Of a stretch of DNA of 43,871 nt, positions 4,410-32,548 are shown piece after piece. The DNA is from a virus. Its lineage: Duplodnaviria; Heunggongvirae; Uroviricota; Caudoviricetes. The stretch lies in IMG/VR virus record IMGVR_UViG_3300001282_000006; one strand, given 5' to 3'. The notes beneath the pieces were generated by a model. The model did no database searches. It had not been told where the DNA came from and was given only the letters and a program-made list of their open reading frames with translations. Both the position numbers and the translations under genes were made by a program. Each line of letters opens with the position of its first letter. Positions within the stretch are counted from its first letter, which is position 1.

Positions 4410-4990
4410 GATATGATTTTATAGAAATAGGAACTTCTGATTTTGATACTCTTTTAGAATCAAGTACAACTGAAATAGGTTTATCAATTGAACCACTTAA
4501 AATATATTTAGACAATCTACCCAATAAAGATACAGTTATTAAGGTAAATTGTGCTATAAGTGATAAAGATGGAATGGTAGATGTTTATTGGATAGATCCT
4601 AAAGATATAGAAAATTATGATTTACCTAGATGGTTAAAAGGTTGTAACTCAATAATCAAACCACACACATCAACAGTTAAAGAATTAAAAGATAGAAATC
4701 TTGAACACATCTATAAAAAAACAGAGTGTAAATGTTTAACCTGGAATAGTATTGTGGATATCTATGATATTAAATATGTAGAATATCTAAAAATAGATAC
4801 TGAAGGTCATGATTGCTTTATTATTAATAATATCTTAGATTCAAATACAACTTTACCTAAAAAAATACTATTTGAGAACAATATACTTTCTGATGAAAAT
4901 CATGTATTGACTACTTTAGAAAGATTAAAAAAATATGGATATACTGTCACAAGTCGTGGAGATTTTGACATTTTAGTTGAGAAATTATGA
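4406..4990 (+). CDS. FkbM-family methyltransferase
   Basis: FIEIGT, IEP, YLKIDTEGHD, ILFEN. Confidence 0.75.
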   Translation: MRYDFIEIGTSDFDTLLESSTTEIGLSIEPLKIYLDNLPNKDTVIKVNCAISDKDGMVDVYWIDPKDIENYDLPRWLKGCNSIIKPHTSTVKELKDRNLEHIYKKTECKCLTWNSIVDIYDIKYVEYLKIDTEGHDCFIINNILDSNTTLPKKILFENNILSDENHVLTTLERLKKYGYTVTSRGDFDILVEKL

Positions 4991-8317: not shown

Positions 8318-8335
8318 CTAAAAAAATAAAAAATA

Positions 8336-8367
8336 TTTGGTGAATTGAAATTGTCACCGTATATTTG
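8336..8367 (+). promoter_or_regulatory. Bacteroidota-type primary-sigma promoter for leader 1
   Basis: TTTG (8336) - 20 nt - TATATTTG (8360). Confidence 0.75.
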
Positions 8368-8400
8368 TAAAAGAATTAAAAACTATAAAAAACTAAAACA

Positions 8401-8478
8401 ATGACAACAATTACTAACATAGCGTATTATTATGAGGGAGAGCGTGGCTCAAACGTCAGACTAATGTCTATGTCGTAA
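8401..8478 (+). CDS. Leader peptide 1, MTTITNIAYYYEGERGSNVRLMSMS (Tyr/Glu sensor)
   Basis: 25-codon ORF between promoter and terminator; TAT TAT TAT GAG GGA GAG; GTCAGACT (8455-8462) complementary to the terminator 5' arm. Confidence 0.8.
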   Translation: MTTITNIAYYYEGERGSNVRLMSMS

Positions 8479-8500
8479 TGGAATCATTATGATATTAACT

Positions 8501-8532
8501 AACCCAGTCTGACTTATCAGACTGGGTTTTTT
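8501..8532 (+). terminator. Intrinsic terminator of attenuator 1
   Basis: aacccagtctga-ctta-tcagactgggtt followed by a T run. Confidence 0.9.
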
Positions 8533-8547
8533 GTTTTAAATTAAATT

Positions 8548-8638
8548 GGGAGTGTAACGTCAGCGGCATGTAAGCCGCCCCTCGTAAATATATGGCGTAT
8601 GGCTTGAGGTAACTAGTGTTCGAATCCTGGTACTCCCA
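8548..8638 (+). ncRNA. Atypical tRNA-like gene (no D arm, GTA in a 6-nt loop)
   Basis: Acceptor gggagtg/tactccc, GTTCGAATC T loop, hairpin gcggc-atGTAa-gccgc, long extra arm. Confidence 0.55.
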
Positions 8639-8644
8639 CAAAAT

Positions 8645-8716
8645 GGTCCTGTCGACTAATGGTCAGGTCAACACCCTTTCAAGGTGTAGATGCGGGTTCG
8701 ATCCCCGTCGGGACTA
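8645..8716 (+). tRNA. tRNA-Glu (TTC)
   Basis: Cloverleaf; acacc-ctTTCaa-ggtgt. Confidence 0.92.
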
Positions 8717-8723
8717 CAAATAT

Positions 8724-8806
8724 GGGAATGATGTGACACAGGTAGTCACGCTAGTCTGTAAAACTAGTGCCTTCGGGCGTTGCGAGTTCGAGTCTCGCCA
8801 TTCCCA
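8724..8806 (+). tRNA. tRNA-Tyr (GTA)
   Basis: ctagt-ctGTAaa-actag; long variable arm. Confidence 0.92.
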
Positions 8807-8824
8807 CAAAAAAATTAACAAATG

Positions 8825-8855
8825 TTTGGATAATTAAAAAATATCCTTATCTTTG
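8825..8855 (+). promoter_or_regulatory. Bacteroidota-type promoter for the second Glu/Tyr pair
   Basis: TTTG (8825) ... TATCTTTG (8848). Confidence 0.75.
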
Positions 8856-8871
8856 TAAAAGAATAAAAAAT

Positions 8872-8943
8872 GGTCCGTTAGTGAAGCGGTTAACACGCTG
8901 CCCTTTCACGGCAGAGGCACGGGTTCGAATCCCGTACGGACTA
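8872..8943 (+). tRNA. tRNA-Glu (TTC)
   Basis: ctgcc-ctTTCac-ggcag. Confidence 0.93.
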
Positions 8944-8949
8944 CAATAT

Positions 8950-9032
8950 TGGAAGGTGGGTGAGTGGTTAAAACCGACAGACTGTAAATCTGTTCTCGCA
9001 AGAGTACGGGGGTTCGAATCCCTCCCTTCCAA
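8950..9032 (+). tRNA. tRNA-Tyr (GTA)
   Basis: acaga-ctGTAaa-tctgt; long variable arm. Confidence 0.93.
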
Positions 9033-9098
9033 CAAAAATTAAAAATAACTAAAAAGGGAGTTAAAACTTTTTATATATACATTAATATAATTAAAACG

Positions 9099-9179
9099 AT
9101 GAAAAATTTAAATAACATATCAACAGCGAAAATAGGAGGCGGCGCGGGAGCGAATGTCACTGGCTGGATTATGTTGTAA
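9099..9179 (+). CDS. Leader peptide 2, MKNLNNISTAKIGGGAGANVTGWIML (Ile/Gly/Ala sensor)
   Basis: ATA GGA GGC GGC GCG GGA GCG run; TGGCTGGATT (9161-9170) can pair with the terminator 5' arm. Confidence 0.8.
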   Translation: MKNLNNISTAKIGGGAGANVTGWIML

Positions 9180-9202
9180 TTTTTTATCAAAAGAATTAAA
9201 CG

Positions 9203-9234
9203 AAACCCAGTCAATCAAATGACTGGGTTTTTTT
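9203..9234 (+). terminator. Intrinsic terminator of attenuator 2
   Basis: aaacccagtca-atcaaa-tgactgggttt followed by a T run. Confidence 0.9.
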
Positions 9235-9243
9235 ATTTTATAT

Positions 9244-9333
9244 TGGCGAATAGCAGTGGTGTCTTATACACACTATACCTGTAGCGGTAACTTGAGATAG
9301 TATCAAACGTGGGTTCGAATCCCACTTCGCCAA
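9244..9333 (+). tRNA. Atypical tRNA-Ile-like gene (TAT), no canonical D arm
   Basis: Acceptor tggcgaa/ttcgcca; perfect T arm gtggg-ttcgaat-cccac; ggtgt-ctTATac-acact. Confidence 0.6.
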
Positions 9334-9341
9334 CAAAAATT

Positions 9342-9413
9342 GCGGGTATCGTATAACGGTTATTACTCCACACTTCCAATGTGGAGATCTCGGTTCGATT
9401 CCGGGTACCCGCT
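9342..9413 (+). tRNA. tRNA-Gly (TCC)
   Basis: ccaca-ctTCCaa-tgtgg; U73. Confidence 0.93.
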
Positions 9414-9423
9414 CAAAACATAT

Positions 9424-9499
9424 GGGGTTACATGTTCCAAGGCTTAGGCGAGTTTGATTTGCGATCAGACTGTGGTGGGTTCGATTCTCACTAGCTCCA
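9424..9499 (+). tRNA. tRNA-Ala (TGC)
   Basis: tttga-ttTGCga-tcaga; G3.U70 alanine identity pair. Confidence 0.85.
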
Positions 9500-9826
9500 C
9501 AAAAAATAAAAAACGAATATGATAGTATTCAAAAACATAATTGATAATAAAACCTATATAATCTATAAGGCACCAAATGGTAATTGTTTAGCAATTCCAT
9601 TTAGACACGATGGTCCTTCTATCCCTAAATGTGATATGAAAGAATTTGTGGTTGTAAGCTCTGAAGATGGTAGATTAGATGGGTTTTTATAATAGTAAGA
9701 TATGGAAAAGAAGATAGTATTAACAGGAGAGTTTGAGTCAAGTAAAAAGAATTTGGGAAGAGACATAAGTAAAAATGGATTGGATAAATTTATTAAAAGA
9801 CTTATAAAGAAGAAAAAGTAAAATAA

Positions 9827-22098: not shown

Positions 22099-22183
22099 CG
22101 GTAGGTACCCGAGCGGTCTTCAGGGACTAGTCTGATACACTAGGTGAGAAATCACAACGTGGGTTCAAATCCCACCCTACCGA
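22099..22183 (+). tRNA. tRNA-Ile (GAT) with long variable arm
   Basis: ctagt-ctGATac-actag; V arm gtga-gaaa-tcac. Confidence 0.8.
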
Positions 22184-22436: not shown

Positions 22437-22522
22437 TGATGGGTGTCCTGAGCGGCGAAAGGACCTGGCTGTTAACCAGACGACATTAAAGTCCACCGTG
22501 GGTTCGAGTCCCACCTCATCAG
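22437..22522 (+). tRNA. tRNA-Asn (GTT) with long variable region
   Basis: ctgg-ctGTTaa-ccag; 17-nt variable region; G73. Confidence 0.78.
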
Positions 22523-22528
22523 CAAGAT

Positions 22529-22774: not shown

Positions 22775-22846
22775 GCTTCTTAAGCATTAATGGTGATGCG
22801 CTAGTCTTGTAAACTAGAGAAATCGGATCGTTACCGGTAAGAAGCT
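22775..22846 (+). tRNA. tRNA-Thr (TGT)
   Basis: ctagt-ctTGTaa-actag; T loop ATCGTTA. Confidence 0.9.
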
Positions 22847-23200: not shown

Positions 23201-23284
23201 GCCGATGTGGCTCAGTGGCGACAGCACTGGTTTTGTAAACCAGAGACGAATAGTCCAACGGGGGTTCGAGTCCCTCCATCGGCT
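23201..23284 (+). tRNA. tRNA-Thr (TGT) with long variable region
   Basis: ctggt-ttTGTaa-accag; variable region agacgaatagtccaac. Confidence 0.82.
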
Positions 23285-23299
23285 CAAAATAAATCACCT

Positions 23300-23414: not shown

Positions 23415-23501
23415 CGCGGGGTAGAGTAGAGGTCAAACTCACTGGGCTCATAACCCAGGGTTGCGCAAGTGACACGTCAGGTTCGAATCCTGCCCCCGCT
23501 A
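23415..23501 (+). tRNA. Initiator-type tRNA-Met (CAT) with long variable arm
   Basis: C1 mismatch; ctggg-ctCATaa-cccag (3 GC pairs); V arm gttgc-gcaa-gtgac. Confidence 0.8.
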
Positions 23502-31810: not shown

Positions 31811-31909
31811 ATGAAAAACTTAAACTTAAATATCGTTAACCCGCAACCACAAGTTGTAATCGATCAGGATCCTGATACGAAAGGGGCTAACTATGTGGTT
31901 TTAAGTTAA
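31811..31909 (+). CDS. Leader peptide 3, MKNLNLNIVNPQPQVVIDQDPDTKGANYVVLS (Pro/Gln/Asp sensor)
   Basis: CCG CAA CCA CAA ... GAT CAG GAT CCT GAT; GGCTAACT (31885-31892) pairs with AGTTAGTC in the terminator arm. Confidence 0.8.
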   Translation: MKNLNLNIVNPQPQVVIDQDPDTKGANYVVLS

Positions 31910-31933
31910 GAAAATATTTAACTATGAAACATT

Positions 31934-31966
31934 ACCCAGTTAGTCGAAAGATTAACTGGGTTTTTT
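31934..31966 (+). terminator. Intrinsic terminator of attenuator 3
   Basis: acccagttagtc-gaaa-gattaactgggt followed by a T run. Confidence 0.9.
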
Positions 31967-31981: not shown

Positions 31982-32055
31982 CGGGTAGTGACTAAGGTTT
32001 TAAGCACGGGGGCTCTGGAGGCTTCAGTTAGTCGGTTCGATTCCGACCTACCCGA
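31982..32055 (+). tRNA. Atypical tRNA, anticodon CTG (Gln) or TGG (Pro) depending on register
   Basis: Perfect acceptor cgggtag/ctacccg and T arm; anticodon region ggggg-ctctggag-gcttc. Confidence 0.6.
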
Positions 32056-32098: not shown

Positions 32099-32171
32099 GG
32101 ATGTGAGGTCAAACGGTTAAGATGTCTGCCTGTCACGCAGTTCGGAGCGGGTTCAACTCCCGTCACGTCCG
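32099..32171 (+). tRNA. tRNA-Asp (GTC)
   Basis: ctgc-ctGTCac-gcag; G73. Confidence 0.9.
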
Positions 32172-32177
32172 CAAATT

Positions 32178-32248
32178 GGTCCTGTAGTTAAACGGCTATA
32201 ATGTCGCCCTGCACGGCGAAGTTCGGAGTTCGATTCTCCGTGGGACCG
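32178..32248 (+). tRNA. tRNA-Asp-like gene with 6-nt anticodon loop (ctgcac)
   Basis: Asp-like body and G73; tcgcc-ctgcac-ggcga, one nt short of ctGTCac. Confidence 0.65.
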
Positions 32249-32253
32249 CAAAA

Positions 32254-32476: not shown

Positions 32477-32548
32477 TGCTCCATAGTATATGGGTGATCA
32501 TATCTGTCTTTGAAACAGATGAGCTTGGTTCGAGTCCAAGTGGAGCAA
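32477..32548 (+). tRNA. tRNA-Gln (TTG)
   Basis: tctgt-ctTTGaa-acaga; U1-A72. Confidence 0.9.

What the first reader, a model, noticed from the sequence alone, without database searches (positions are those of the whole stretch)
8548..9333. Two D-armless tRNA-like genes, each first after a terminator, with loops matching the leader
8548-8638 and 9244-9333 share a layout: acceptor stem, 7-8 nt linker, hairpin with anticodon-like loop (GTA in 6 nt; TAT in 7 nt), long extra arm, T arm. The 9244 extra arm contains a D-loop-like AGCGGTA. GTA fits the Tyr codons of leader 1 and TAT fits the ATA codons of leader 2. A true Ile(UAU) would bypass lysidine-dependent AUA decoding. They could be non-canonical tRNAs, nuclease decoys or decayed genes.
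Basis: partly seen in the sequence, partly recalled or inferred. Interest (0 to 1): 0.7.

Follow-up and report, generated by a model that had tools for sequence, protein, structure and literature searches.

The report
Two rewired-core phage tRNA genes
Both odd genes belong to a conserved, apparently phage-only kind of tRNA whose D arm is taken apart and rebuilt around the anticodon arm. One is most likely a working isoleucine tRNA for the AUA codon. The other is a tyrosine-tRNA look-alike with no readable anticodon loop that is still kept as the first gene behind a Tyr/Glu-sensing switch.

Summary
Both elements sit where stated, each first after an intrinsic terminator that closes a leader mini-gene.

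X2 (9244-9333) is not a wreck. It belongs to a large family (91 distinct sequences collected here) with no D hairpin. Three bases of the linker pair with three bases after the anticodon arm, and a D-loop-like TAGCGG follows. All four helices covary. Arg-anticodon members carry the ArgRS determinant A right after the GG, and Ile members never do. Sister huge phages have an ordinary tRNA-Ile(UAU) in the same slot. I read X2 as a working tRNA-Ile(UAU).

X1 (8548-8638) is a tyrosine-derived relative. [quoted passage not shown] Its stems covary, but its anticodon-like loop is 6-9 nt and changes between relatives, so it is maintained but probably does not decode. Its role is open.

The motif search found no match in 185,579 prokaryote genomes, and ARAGORN missed 67 of 71 members. 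I found no paper describing this design. This scan has already noted the rewired-D family on other DNA. The X1 class and its tie to the attenuator appear in none of the earlier notes shown to me.

The parts
8401..8478 (+). Context: leader ORF 1 (25 codons, with a Tyr-Tyr-Tyr-Glu-Gly-Glu run).
   Evidence: Read. Homologous Tyr/Glu-rich leaders precede every X1-type copy.
8501..8534 (+). Context: intrinsic terminator 1 (12-pair stem plus T run).
8548..8638 (+). X1: a tyrosine-derived tRNA-like gene with a rewired D domain and a 6-nt anticodon-like loop.
   Evidence: Eleven homologues, all directly after a Tyr/Glu leader terminator.
8557..8560 (+). X1 linker strand (ACGT) of the D-like helix.
   Evidence: Pairs with 8595-8598. 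The fourth pair is T.G, T-A or G-C in different lineages.
8563..8578 (+). X1 anticodon-like hairpin: 5-bp stem and a 6-nt loop at 8568-8573.
   Evidence: The stem covaries. The loop is 6, 7, 8 or 9 nt in relatives and its sequence varies.
8580..8609 (+). X1 long variable arm: a 5-bp stem (8580-8584 with 8605-8609) whose 20-nt loop carries the partner strand (8595-8598) and a D-loop-like ATGG (8599-8602).
8613..8630 (+). X1 T arm: a stem with one bulged T (8617) and a TTCGAAT loop (8619-8625).
   Evidence: The bulge is kept, with an A-T to T-A compensatory change, in L058 and L059.
9099..9179 (+). Context: leader ORF 2 (26 codons; two ATA, five Gly and three Ala codons).
   Evidence: ATA-rich leaders precede Ile(UAU) genes of both builds in relatives.
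9202..9238 (+). Context: intrinsic terminator 2.
9244..9333 (+). X2: a rewired-D tRNA, probably tRNA-Ile(UAU).
   Evidence: R1 score 83.5 bits, E = 2e-24. Rfam tRNA score 34.3 bits with the D arm deleted.
9254..9256 (+). X2 linker strand (CAG) of the D-like helix.
   Evidence: Pairs with 9279-9281 (CTG). This helix is paired in 95% of cells across 91 sequences, with compensatory changes at all three pairs.
9258..9274 (+). X2 anticodon arm: 5 bp and loop CTTATAC (anticodon TAT at 9265-9267). T9257 and A9275 stand at the 26:44 position.
9279..9291 (+). X2 partner strand CTG (9279-9281), followed by the D-loop-like T-AGCGG-TAAC.
   Evidence: The base after GG tracks amino-acid identity across the family.
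9292..9306 (+). X2 mini variable hairpin (4-bp stem, 7-nt loop), made by a 9-nt insertion relative to the 81-nt majority form.
   Evidence: Present also in L059, L089 and L108.
9309..9325 (+). X2 T arm (5 bp, TTCGAAT loop).

Best explanation
Both genes are members of a phage-specific family of tRNAs with a rewired D domain. The chain runs: acceptor stem, U8-A9, a 3-4 nt strand that leads straight into the anticodon arm, then after that arm the complementary strand, then a D-loop-like A(GC)GG, then the T arm. The short helix stacks under the anticodon stem (5 + 1 + 3-4 layers, as in a normal tRNA). The GG can reach the T loop. The L shape would therefore be kept with a different backbone path.

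The helix is shown by covariation. The three-dimensional mimicry is inferred. A partial duplication of positions 8-43 followed by two deletions would produce exactly this order, including the second TA that precedes the partner strand. That origin is also inferred.

X2 is a working tRNA-Ile(UAU). I infer that it is cut out of the read-through transcript by RNase P and a 3' nuclease, given CCA (none is encoded), charged by IleRS, and used to read AUA. AUA makes up 26 per 1000 codons in this 30.5% GC window.

X1 is a paralogue of the tyrosine version of this design. It keeps the body and the bacterial Tyr identity marks (G1-C72, A73, long variable arm). It has lost the 7-nt anticodon loop, so it is made and processed like a tRNA but does not decode. 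It is produced only when the Tyr/Glu attenuator reads through. My favoured but weakly supported role is a mimic that occupies a protein which binds tRNA-Tyr, either TyrRS or a host tRNA-targeting nuclease.
For: Evidence for X2 and its family:
- MAFFT alignment of 29 members: 95.3% of cells paired, against 63% when shuffled and 40-48% when the partner is slid. The linker/partner helix is 89.7% paired, with GC/AU/CG and AU/GC/UA/CG exchanges.
- 91 distinct sequences aligned to model R1: that helix is 95.1% paired, with compensatory changes at all three pairs.
- Sequences with a 7-nt loop almost all have U33 and A37. Anticodons: TAT 48, GAT 22, TCT 11, TCG 6, ACG 1, CAT 1.
- The base after GG is A in 17 of 18 Arg members and T or G in 70 of 70 Ile members. 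A73 is present in 70 of 70 Ile members. These match the bacterial identity rules: A20 for ArgRS; A73 and U20 for IleRS (PMC9976931).
- X2 itself has A73, C4-G69 and T after GG.
- The same slot holds a canonical tRNA-Ile(TAT) in L001, L002, L014, L022 and L038, and the rewired form in L020, L041, L053 and L059.
- Leaders carry 2-5 ATA codons.
- ATA and AGA are heavily used in the window.

Evidence for X1:
- All 11 copies lie 10-25 nt after a Tyr/Glu leader terminator and before tRNA-Glu.
- All have acceptor 7/7 and A73. The hairpin stem changes by compensation. The D-like helix is 4/4 in 10 of 11 copies, with T.G, T-A and G-C at one pair.
- Loop length is 6-9 nt, and GTA is lost in L014 and L059.
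- Decoding versions with a normal CTGTAAA loop exist, and one lies next to the 6-nt form in L051.
- Two ordinary tRNA-Tyr genes follow in the window.
Against: - There is no expression, processing or charging data.
- The three-dimensional mimicry is inferred from counts of stacked pairs and from motifs, not modelled.
- The A3 alignment was fitted to the model's structure, which favours pairing.
- The family sample was drawn with a motif pattern, so the anticodon tally is biased towards Ile.
- X1: one sister phage (L002) keeps only a 19-nt remnant, and another (L050) has none. It is therefore dispensable in some lineages.
- X1: covariation of the pseudoknot-like helix rests on one variable pair and about five independent lineages.
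- X1: the drifting loop argues against a mimic of the tRNA-Tyr anticodon loop.
- X1: single-sequence folding is not better than shuffles (z = -1.3).
Confidence: 0.68

Rival explanations
1. Both elements are decaying tRNA gene copies with no function of their own.
For: - Standard finders reject them or mis-call them.
- X1 has a 6-nt loop.
- X1 is reduced to a remnant in L002.
- The window holds other damaged-looking copies, such as an Asp-like gene with a 6-nt loop at 32178-32249 whose nearest relative has the normal loop.
Against: - Compensatory changes occur in every helix across 91 (X2 kind) and 11 (X1 kind) sequences from many metagenomes.
- Identity nucleotides track the anticodon.
- The X2 kind and the canonical tRNA-Ile(UAU) replace each other at one slot.
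Confidence: 0.05
2. X2 works as described, but X1 is a functionless relic. Its tRNA-like fold is kept only because a misfolding first unit would disturb RNase P/Z processing of the array behind the terminator. On this reading it is a spacer or processing insulator.
For: - X1 is always the first unit after the terminator.
- Only the body is conserved, while the loop drifts.
- It was lost without replacement in L050 and L002.
- Another odd tRNA-like gene is first after the Pro/Gln/Asp attenuator at 31982-32055.
Against: - Other attenuators in the same window and in relatives are followed directly by decoding tRNAs (X2; 22099; Gln at 32477; Glu in L050), so no spacer is needed.
- A mere spacer need not keep the hairpin stem, the long variable arm and the linker/loop helix by compensation.
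Confidence: 0.22
3. Both RNAs are decoys for host tRNA-cleaving defence nucleases rather than adaptors in translation.
For: - Phage tRNAs are known to counter tRNA-targeting defences, for example Retron-Eco7, which degrades tRNA-Tyr (PMC12673091, listed).
- X1 keeps a GTAA-like loop in 9 of 11 copies.
- The altered core could change nuclease recognition (inference).
Against: - X2 kind: the strictly canonical 7-nt loops, aminoacylation identity marks and interchange with a normal tRNA-Ile point to decoding.
- X1: a mimic of the target loop should keep its size and sequence, and it does not.
Confidence: 0.1
4. X1 still decodes, as an unusual tRNA-Tyr or as a frameshifting tRNA that uses a 6-9 nt loop.
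For: - G1-C72, A73, the long variable arm and GUA are present.
- Some relatives have a 7-nt loop, ACGTAAA.
Against: - Loop length differs among near-identical bodies (6, 7, 8 and 9 nt).
- C replaces U33 in one clade.
- GTA is lost in two lineages.
- The T stem carries a bulge.
- Two or more normal tRNA-Tyr genes are present.
Confidence: 0.07

Closest known systems
Canonical tRNA-Ile(UAU) of sister huge phages (LR745206 = L001 4417-4491; LR756502 = L002 3580-3653)
   Same: It occupies the same slot, first after the Ile/Gly/Ala leader terminator. It has the same anticodon loop, A73, and similar anticodon and T stems.
   Different: It has a normal D hairpin between position 9 and the anticodon arm. 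X2 has none, and instead carries the partner strand and the D-loop motif after the anticodon arm.
Metazoan mitochondrial D-armless tRNAs, e.g. mt-tRNA-Ser(AGY) (PMC4013460, PMC9427863, PMC7609411)
   Same: There is no D hairpin, only a short connector between the acceptor and anticodon stems. They still function in translation.
   Different: The mitochondrial forms have lost the D-loop/T-loop elbow and are shorter and flexible. Here a D-like helix and a GG motif are retained in a new position, at normal or greater length (77-91 nt). The setting is bacterial translation, where all known bacterial tRNAs are reported to adopt the cloverleaf (PMC11551756).
Engineered D-arm-less 'mini HisT' accepted by E. 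coli HisRS, EF-Tu and the ribosome (PMC11551756)
   Same: It shows that the bacterial machinery can use a tRNA without a D hairpin.
   Different: It is artificial, has no relocated D element, and needed a host pnp mutation for stability. The family here is natural.
Circularly permuted tRNA genes of the red alga Cyanidioschyzon merolae (recalled from memory, Soma et al. 2007; not checked here)
   Same: The order of tRNA segments in the gene is rearranged.
   Different: In the alga the mature tRNA is a normal cloverleaf, restored by processing through a circular intermediate. Here the acceptor ends are in the normal order and the mature RNA itself would be rewired.
Non-decoding tRNA look-alikes: viral tRNA-like structures with Tyr identity (BMV TLS; PMC9976931) and bacterial/phage YrlA
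   Same: Like X1, they keep an acceptor/T-arm body and synthetase or protein recognition marks without decoding on the ribosome.
   Different: X1 is a free-standing gene in a tRNA array under a leader-peptide attenuator. It has no sequence or Rfam match to either class.

Membership tests
Canonical tRNA (Rfam RF00005 cloverleaf) | 7-bp acceptor stem with an unpaired discriminator base. | tested here: met
   X1: 8548-8554 with 8631-8637 (one G.T pair). X2: 9244-9250 with 9326-9332. A73 in both.
Canonical tRNA (Rfam RF00005 cloverleaf) | D hairpin (3-4 bp stem with an A14...G18G19...A21 loop) between position 9 and position 26. | tested here: not met
   Only 5-8 nt lie between the acceptor and anticodon stems. 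The Rfam alignment of X2 deletes the whole D arm. The GG motif lies 3' of the anticodon arm.
Canonical tRNA (Rfam RF00005 cloverleaf) | 5-bp anticodon stem with a 7-nt loop, U33 and a purine at 37. | tested here: inconclusive
   Met by X2 (CTTATAC). Not met by X1 (6-nt loop; 6-9 nt in relatives).
Canonical tRNA (Rfam RF00005 cloverleaf) | Score at or above the Rfam gathering threshold (29 bits). | tested here: inconclusive
   X2 scores 34.3 bits. X1 has no hit even at E = 10.
Rewired-D phage tRNA family (model R1 built here) | A 3-bp helix between the linker and the strand immediately 5' of T-AGCGG, enclosing the anticodon arm. | tested here: met
   X2: CAG (9254-9256) with CTG (9279-9281). 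Family-wide the helix is 95% paired with compensatory changes. X1 has the equivalent 4-bp helix, 8557-8560 with 8595-8598, but the partner lies in a variable-arm loop.
Rewired-D phage tRNA family (model R1 built here) | Significant score against the family covariance model. | tested here: inconclusive
   X2: 83.5 bits, E = 2e-24. X1: 15.3 bits, E = 0.03, so it is a divergent subclass.
Rewired-D phage tRNA family (model R1 built here) | Aminoacylation identity nucleotides that fit the anticodon. | tested here: met
   A after GG in 17 of 18 Arg members. T or G after GG, and A73, in 70 of 70 Ile members. X2 has T after GG, A73 and C4-G69.
Functional aminoacylated tRNA used by the ribosome | Processed to a CCA-ended RNA, charged, and active in decoding. 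| not testable with these tools
No cultured host is known.
Mitochondrial-type D-armless tRNA | Loss of the D-loop/T-loop elbow contacts (no G18G19 equivalent). | tested here: not met
   A conserved GG motif with identity-linked flanks is retained.
Bacterial tRNA-Tyr (class II) | G1-C72, A73, a long variable arm and a GUA anticodon in a 7-nt loop. | tested here: not met
   X1 has G1-C72, A73, a 5-bp variable-arm stem and GTA, but in a 6-nt loop. A second clade has U1-A72.

The most novel reading that the evidence does not exclude
X1 is a dedicated non-decoding tRNA-Tyr mimic and the first product made when the Tyr/Glu attenuator senses slow reading of Tyr and Glu codons. Together they would form a sense-and-respond module. 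A fall in usable tRNA-Tyr, for instance through a host tRNA-Tyr nuclease, would switch on spare tRNAs together with an RNA that occupies the attacker. Alternatively X1 occupies TyrRS, which would lock the switch on. The fast-changing loop on a conserved body would then reflect an arms race.
Probability: 0.2. Interest if true: 0.9.

Novelty: new variant of a known kind. Interest (0 to 1): 0.8.

Why it matters
[quoted passage not shown] Here a natural family used in bacterial cells keeps the helices and elbow motifs of a tRNA but threads the chain through them in a different order.

If these RNAs are charged and decode, three things follow:
- The cloverleaf connectivity is not required by bacterial synthetases, EF-Tu, RNase P or the ribosome.
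- Phage tRNA repertoires are under-counted. ARAGORN missed 67 of 71 members.
- The design offers natural scaffolds for orthogonal tRNAs.

The family mainly supplies AUA and AGA/CGN decoders. AUA and AGA are common codons in this AT-rich window.

X1 adds a conserved tRNA-shaped RNA that cannot decode, and it is hard-wired to a leader-peptide attenuator.

Tried and rejected
The window's own assembly is not held. The nearest viral record ends inside the region.
- An alternative canonical cloverleaf for X2: no D hairpin or second anticodon arm can be drawn, and Rfam also places the TAT hairpin as the anticodon arm.
- Minimum-free-energy folds of single sequences are unreliable here. The X2 fold pairs the anticodon loop with the variable region, and that pairing is not conserved.
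- More X1-type copies: three further viral scans gave no new members beyond the 11. Most hits are unrelated tRNAs.
- The MAFFT alignment of X1 copies (A2) misplaces the variable arm of L058/L059 and the 7-nt-loop clade. I therefore parsed the helices by anchors in a script instead of using count of structure pairs.
- Pairing between the X1 loop and the leader's Tyr codons: no match.
- The 8-nt identity between the X1 linker and the antiterminator segment of leader 1 is absent in the other clade, so I treat it as coincidence.
- Relative conservation of X1 against its leader is mixed: 98% vs 69% in L056, and 79% vs 97% in L058. This suggests mosaicism and does not settle selection.
- 'First after a terminator' as a rule for the X2 kind is rejected: 17 of 66.
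- Cellular origin: the family motif has 0 hits in 185,579 prokaryote genomes.
- Literature: three full-text searches found no description of such phage tRNAs. Absence from that library is not proof.

Full report
**What is there.** The window is 30.5% GC. Its nearest public relatives are uncultured phage genomes of 630-640 kb, LR745206 and LR756502. The stretch 8330-9500 reads as follows:
- a promoter-like box;
- leader ORF 1 (8401-8478), which contains a Tyr-Tyr-Tyr-Glu-Gly-Glu run;
- a terminator (8501-8528 plus a T run);
- X1 (8548-8638), then tRNA-Glu and tRNA-Tyr, then a second Glu/Tyr pair;
- leader ORF 2 (9099-9179), with two ATA, five Gly and three Ala codons;
- a terminator (9202-9231 plus a T run);
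- X2 (9244-9333), then tRNA-Gly and tRNA-Ala.

ARAGORN misses X1 and calls X2 'tRNA-???'. The Rfam tRNA model gives X2 34.3 bits only by deleting the D arm, and gives nothing for X1.

**X2 belongs to a large, covarying family.** In sister phages the gene at this slot is an ordinary tRNA-Ile(TAT): L001 4417-4491, L002 3580-3653, and also L014, L022 and L038. In other relatives (L020, L041, L053, L059) it has the X2 build. Pattern scans and a script recovered 71 unique sequences of the X2 build. A covariance model raised this to 91 distinct sequences from viral and metagenome contigs.

The common plan has these parts, in order:
- a 7-bp acceptor stem, then TA and one further base;
- a 3-nt strand, then one base at the place of position 26;
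- a 5-bp anticodon stem with a 7-nt loop;
- an A at the place of position 44, then three further bases;
- the 3-nt complement, then T-AGCGG;
- about 10 nt ending in GAAAAC, the T arm, the acceptor 3' strand and A73.

On a MAFFT alignment of 29 members, 95.3% of cells pair. The figure is 63% after shuffling and 40-48% when the partner is slid. The new linker/partner helix is 89.7% paired, with GC/AU/CG and AU/GC/UA/CG exchanges. On 91 distinct sequences aligned to model R1 that helix is 95.1% paired and all three pairs show compensatory changes. That alignment is fitted to the model, so it leans towards pairing.

X2 scores 83.5 bits. It differs from the 81-nt majority by a 9-nt insertion that forms a small variable hairpin (9292-9306). 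The same insertion is seen in L059, L089 and L108.

**These look like working tRNAs.**
- Nearly all loops are of the normal form, with U33 and A37 (89 of 91). Anticodons are TAT (48), GAT (22), TCT (11), TCG (6), ACG (1) and CAT (1). The sample is biased by the search motif.
- The base after the GG is A in 17 of 18 Arg members. It is T or G in all 70 Ile members, and all 70 have A73.
- A20 is the main ArgRS determinant in bacteria. A73, C4-G69 and U20 belong to the bacterial Ile identity set (PMC9976931).
- This identifies the GG as the counterpart of G18-G19. It also implies charging by the ordinary rules. X2 has T after GG, A73 and C4-G69.

Only 17 of 66 members follow a terminator. The rest sit inside arrays or after protein genes. 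L002 carries both a canonical and a rewired Ile(UAU) gene. ATA makes up 26 per 1000 codons and AGA 30 per 1000 in the window's long ORFs. All leaders in front of Ile(UAU) genes of either build contain 2-5 ATA codons.

**How the rewired core probably works (inferred).** The linker strand runs directly into the anticodon stem, as positions 23-25 and 26 do in a normal tRNA. The partner strand rises from the anticodon arm and continues into T-A-G-C-G-G, as positions 10-13 continue into the D loop. The stack has 5 + 1 + 3-4 layers, which matches the anticodon stem plus D stem of a cloverleaf. The GG can meet the T loop. A second TA precedes the partner strand, as U8-A9 precede position 10. This is what a partial duplication of positions 8-43 followed by loss of complementary halves would leave.

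**X1 is a different, tyrosine-derived subclass.** Eleven copies were found: the window, L056, L014/L032, L058, L059, L051, L182, L246, L261, L178 and L020. Every one lies 10-25 nt after the terminator of a Tyr/Glu-rich leader and before tRNA-Glu.

All copies share these features:
- a 7/7 acceptor stem and A73;
- a linker TA-ACG(T/G)-NA;
- a hairpin whose stem changes by compensation, in five stem versions;
- a 3-5 bp variable-arm stem with a loop of about 20 nt;
- a 4-nt strand in that loop, immediately 5' of AT(G/A)G, that pairs with the linker. The pairing is 4/4 in 10 of 11 copies, and the fourth pair is T.G, T-A or G-C.

The hairpin loop, however, is 6, 7, 8 or 9 nt. Its sequence differs between near-identical bodies. 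U33 is C in one clade. GTA is absent in L014 and L059. The T stem of the window clade carries a bulged base, kept through an A-T to T-A exchange.

Decoding versions of the same design with a normal CTGTAAA loop exist (L174, L276-L279). In L051 one lies right behind the 6-nt-loop copy. The window has two ordinary tRNA-Tyr genes downstream.

I conclude that X1 is structurally maintained but does not decode. It is dispensable in some lineages: only a remnant remains in L002 and there is none in L050. Its role is not shown. I favour, weakly, a tRNA-Tyr body mimic that is produced on read-through.

**Distribution and prior knowledge.** The family motif has no match in one genome from each of 185,579 prokaryote species. 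It has 99 matching stretches in metagenome contigs and many in viral contigs. ARAGORN finds 4 of 71 members, and only one with the right anticodon.

Full-text searches found no description. A 2024 paper states that all known bacterial tRNAs are cloverleaves, and a 2020 review of non-canonical tRNAs lists D-arm loss only in mitochondria.

Earlier notes of this scan describe the same rewired-D family on other DNA. I re-derived it independently here. None of the notes shown to me mentions the X1 subclass or its fixed place behind the Tyr/Glu attenuator.

**Verdict.** I put X2 being a functional rewired tRNA-Ile(UAU) at about 0.8. I put X1 being a maintained, non-decoding tRNA-like RNA at about 0.6. 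Any specific role for X1 is at most 0.3.

Noticed in passing
window 31982-32055 (leader ORF about 31812-31910, terminator about 31936-31966): A third unannotated tRNA-like gene is first after a Pro/Gln/Asp leader terminator. It has a 7-bp acceptor stem, a T arm, and a 5-bp hairpin with an invariant loop TCTGGAG (anticodon TGG, with C at position 33). A 5-bp helix between bases 8-12 and the bases just before the T stem encloses the anticodon arm. Stems covary in L376, L377, L379 and L380.
   Followed up: partly
window 22099-22183, 22437-22523, 23201-23285, 23416-23500: Four tRNAs with long variable arms (class II shape) carry anticodons for Ile (GAT), Asn (GTT), Thr (TGT) and Met (CAT). In bacteria that shape is normally limited to Leu, Ser and Tyr. 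A Glu (TTC) example occurs in L002 2942-3027 and L059.
   Followed up: no
window 9424-9500; L002 about 4850-4925: tRNA-Ala(TGC) with G3.U70 but an aberrant D region. It scores only 15.6 bits against the Rfam tRNA model. The same build is present in LR756502.
   Followed up: no
window 32178-32249: An otherwise normal tRNA (Rfam 48.9 bits) has a 6-nt anticodon loop, CTGCAC. In the nearest relative (L377) the homologue has the 7-nt Asp loop CTGTCAC. The window copy therefore lacks U35, and it sits next to an intact tRNA-Asp at 32099-32172.
   Followed up: partly
window 43211-43297 and 43340-43600: A tRNA-like element has a TCGTAAC loop (GTA with C at position 33). It is followed by three tandem units of about 85 nt. 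Each unit contains a CGTAGTGG motif and a T-arm-like hairpin with non-standard loops. ARAGORN calls none of them.
   Followed up: no
L001 4417-4491, L014, L038 (canonical tRNA-Ile(TAT) of relatives): Their T loop reads ATCGTTA instead of TTCGAAT, which swaps the 54 and 58 bases (A54/T58). The same loop occurs in the window, for example near 22820 and 23050.
   Followed up: no
L058 and L059 X1 copies against window 8599-8602 / 8619-8625: Where the D-loop-like ATGG becomes ATAG, the T loop changes from TTCGAAT to TGCAAAT. This may be covariation of the G18/U55 contact, but it rests on a single event.
   Followed up: no
L002 about 2910-2930: A remnant of X1 is left: its first 13 nt joined to its last 6 nt by an internal deletion, directly after the Tyr/Glu leader terminator.
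   Followed up: partly
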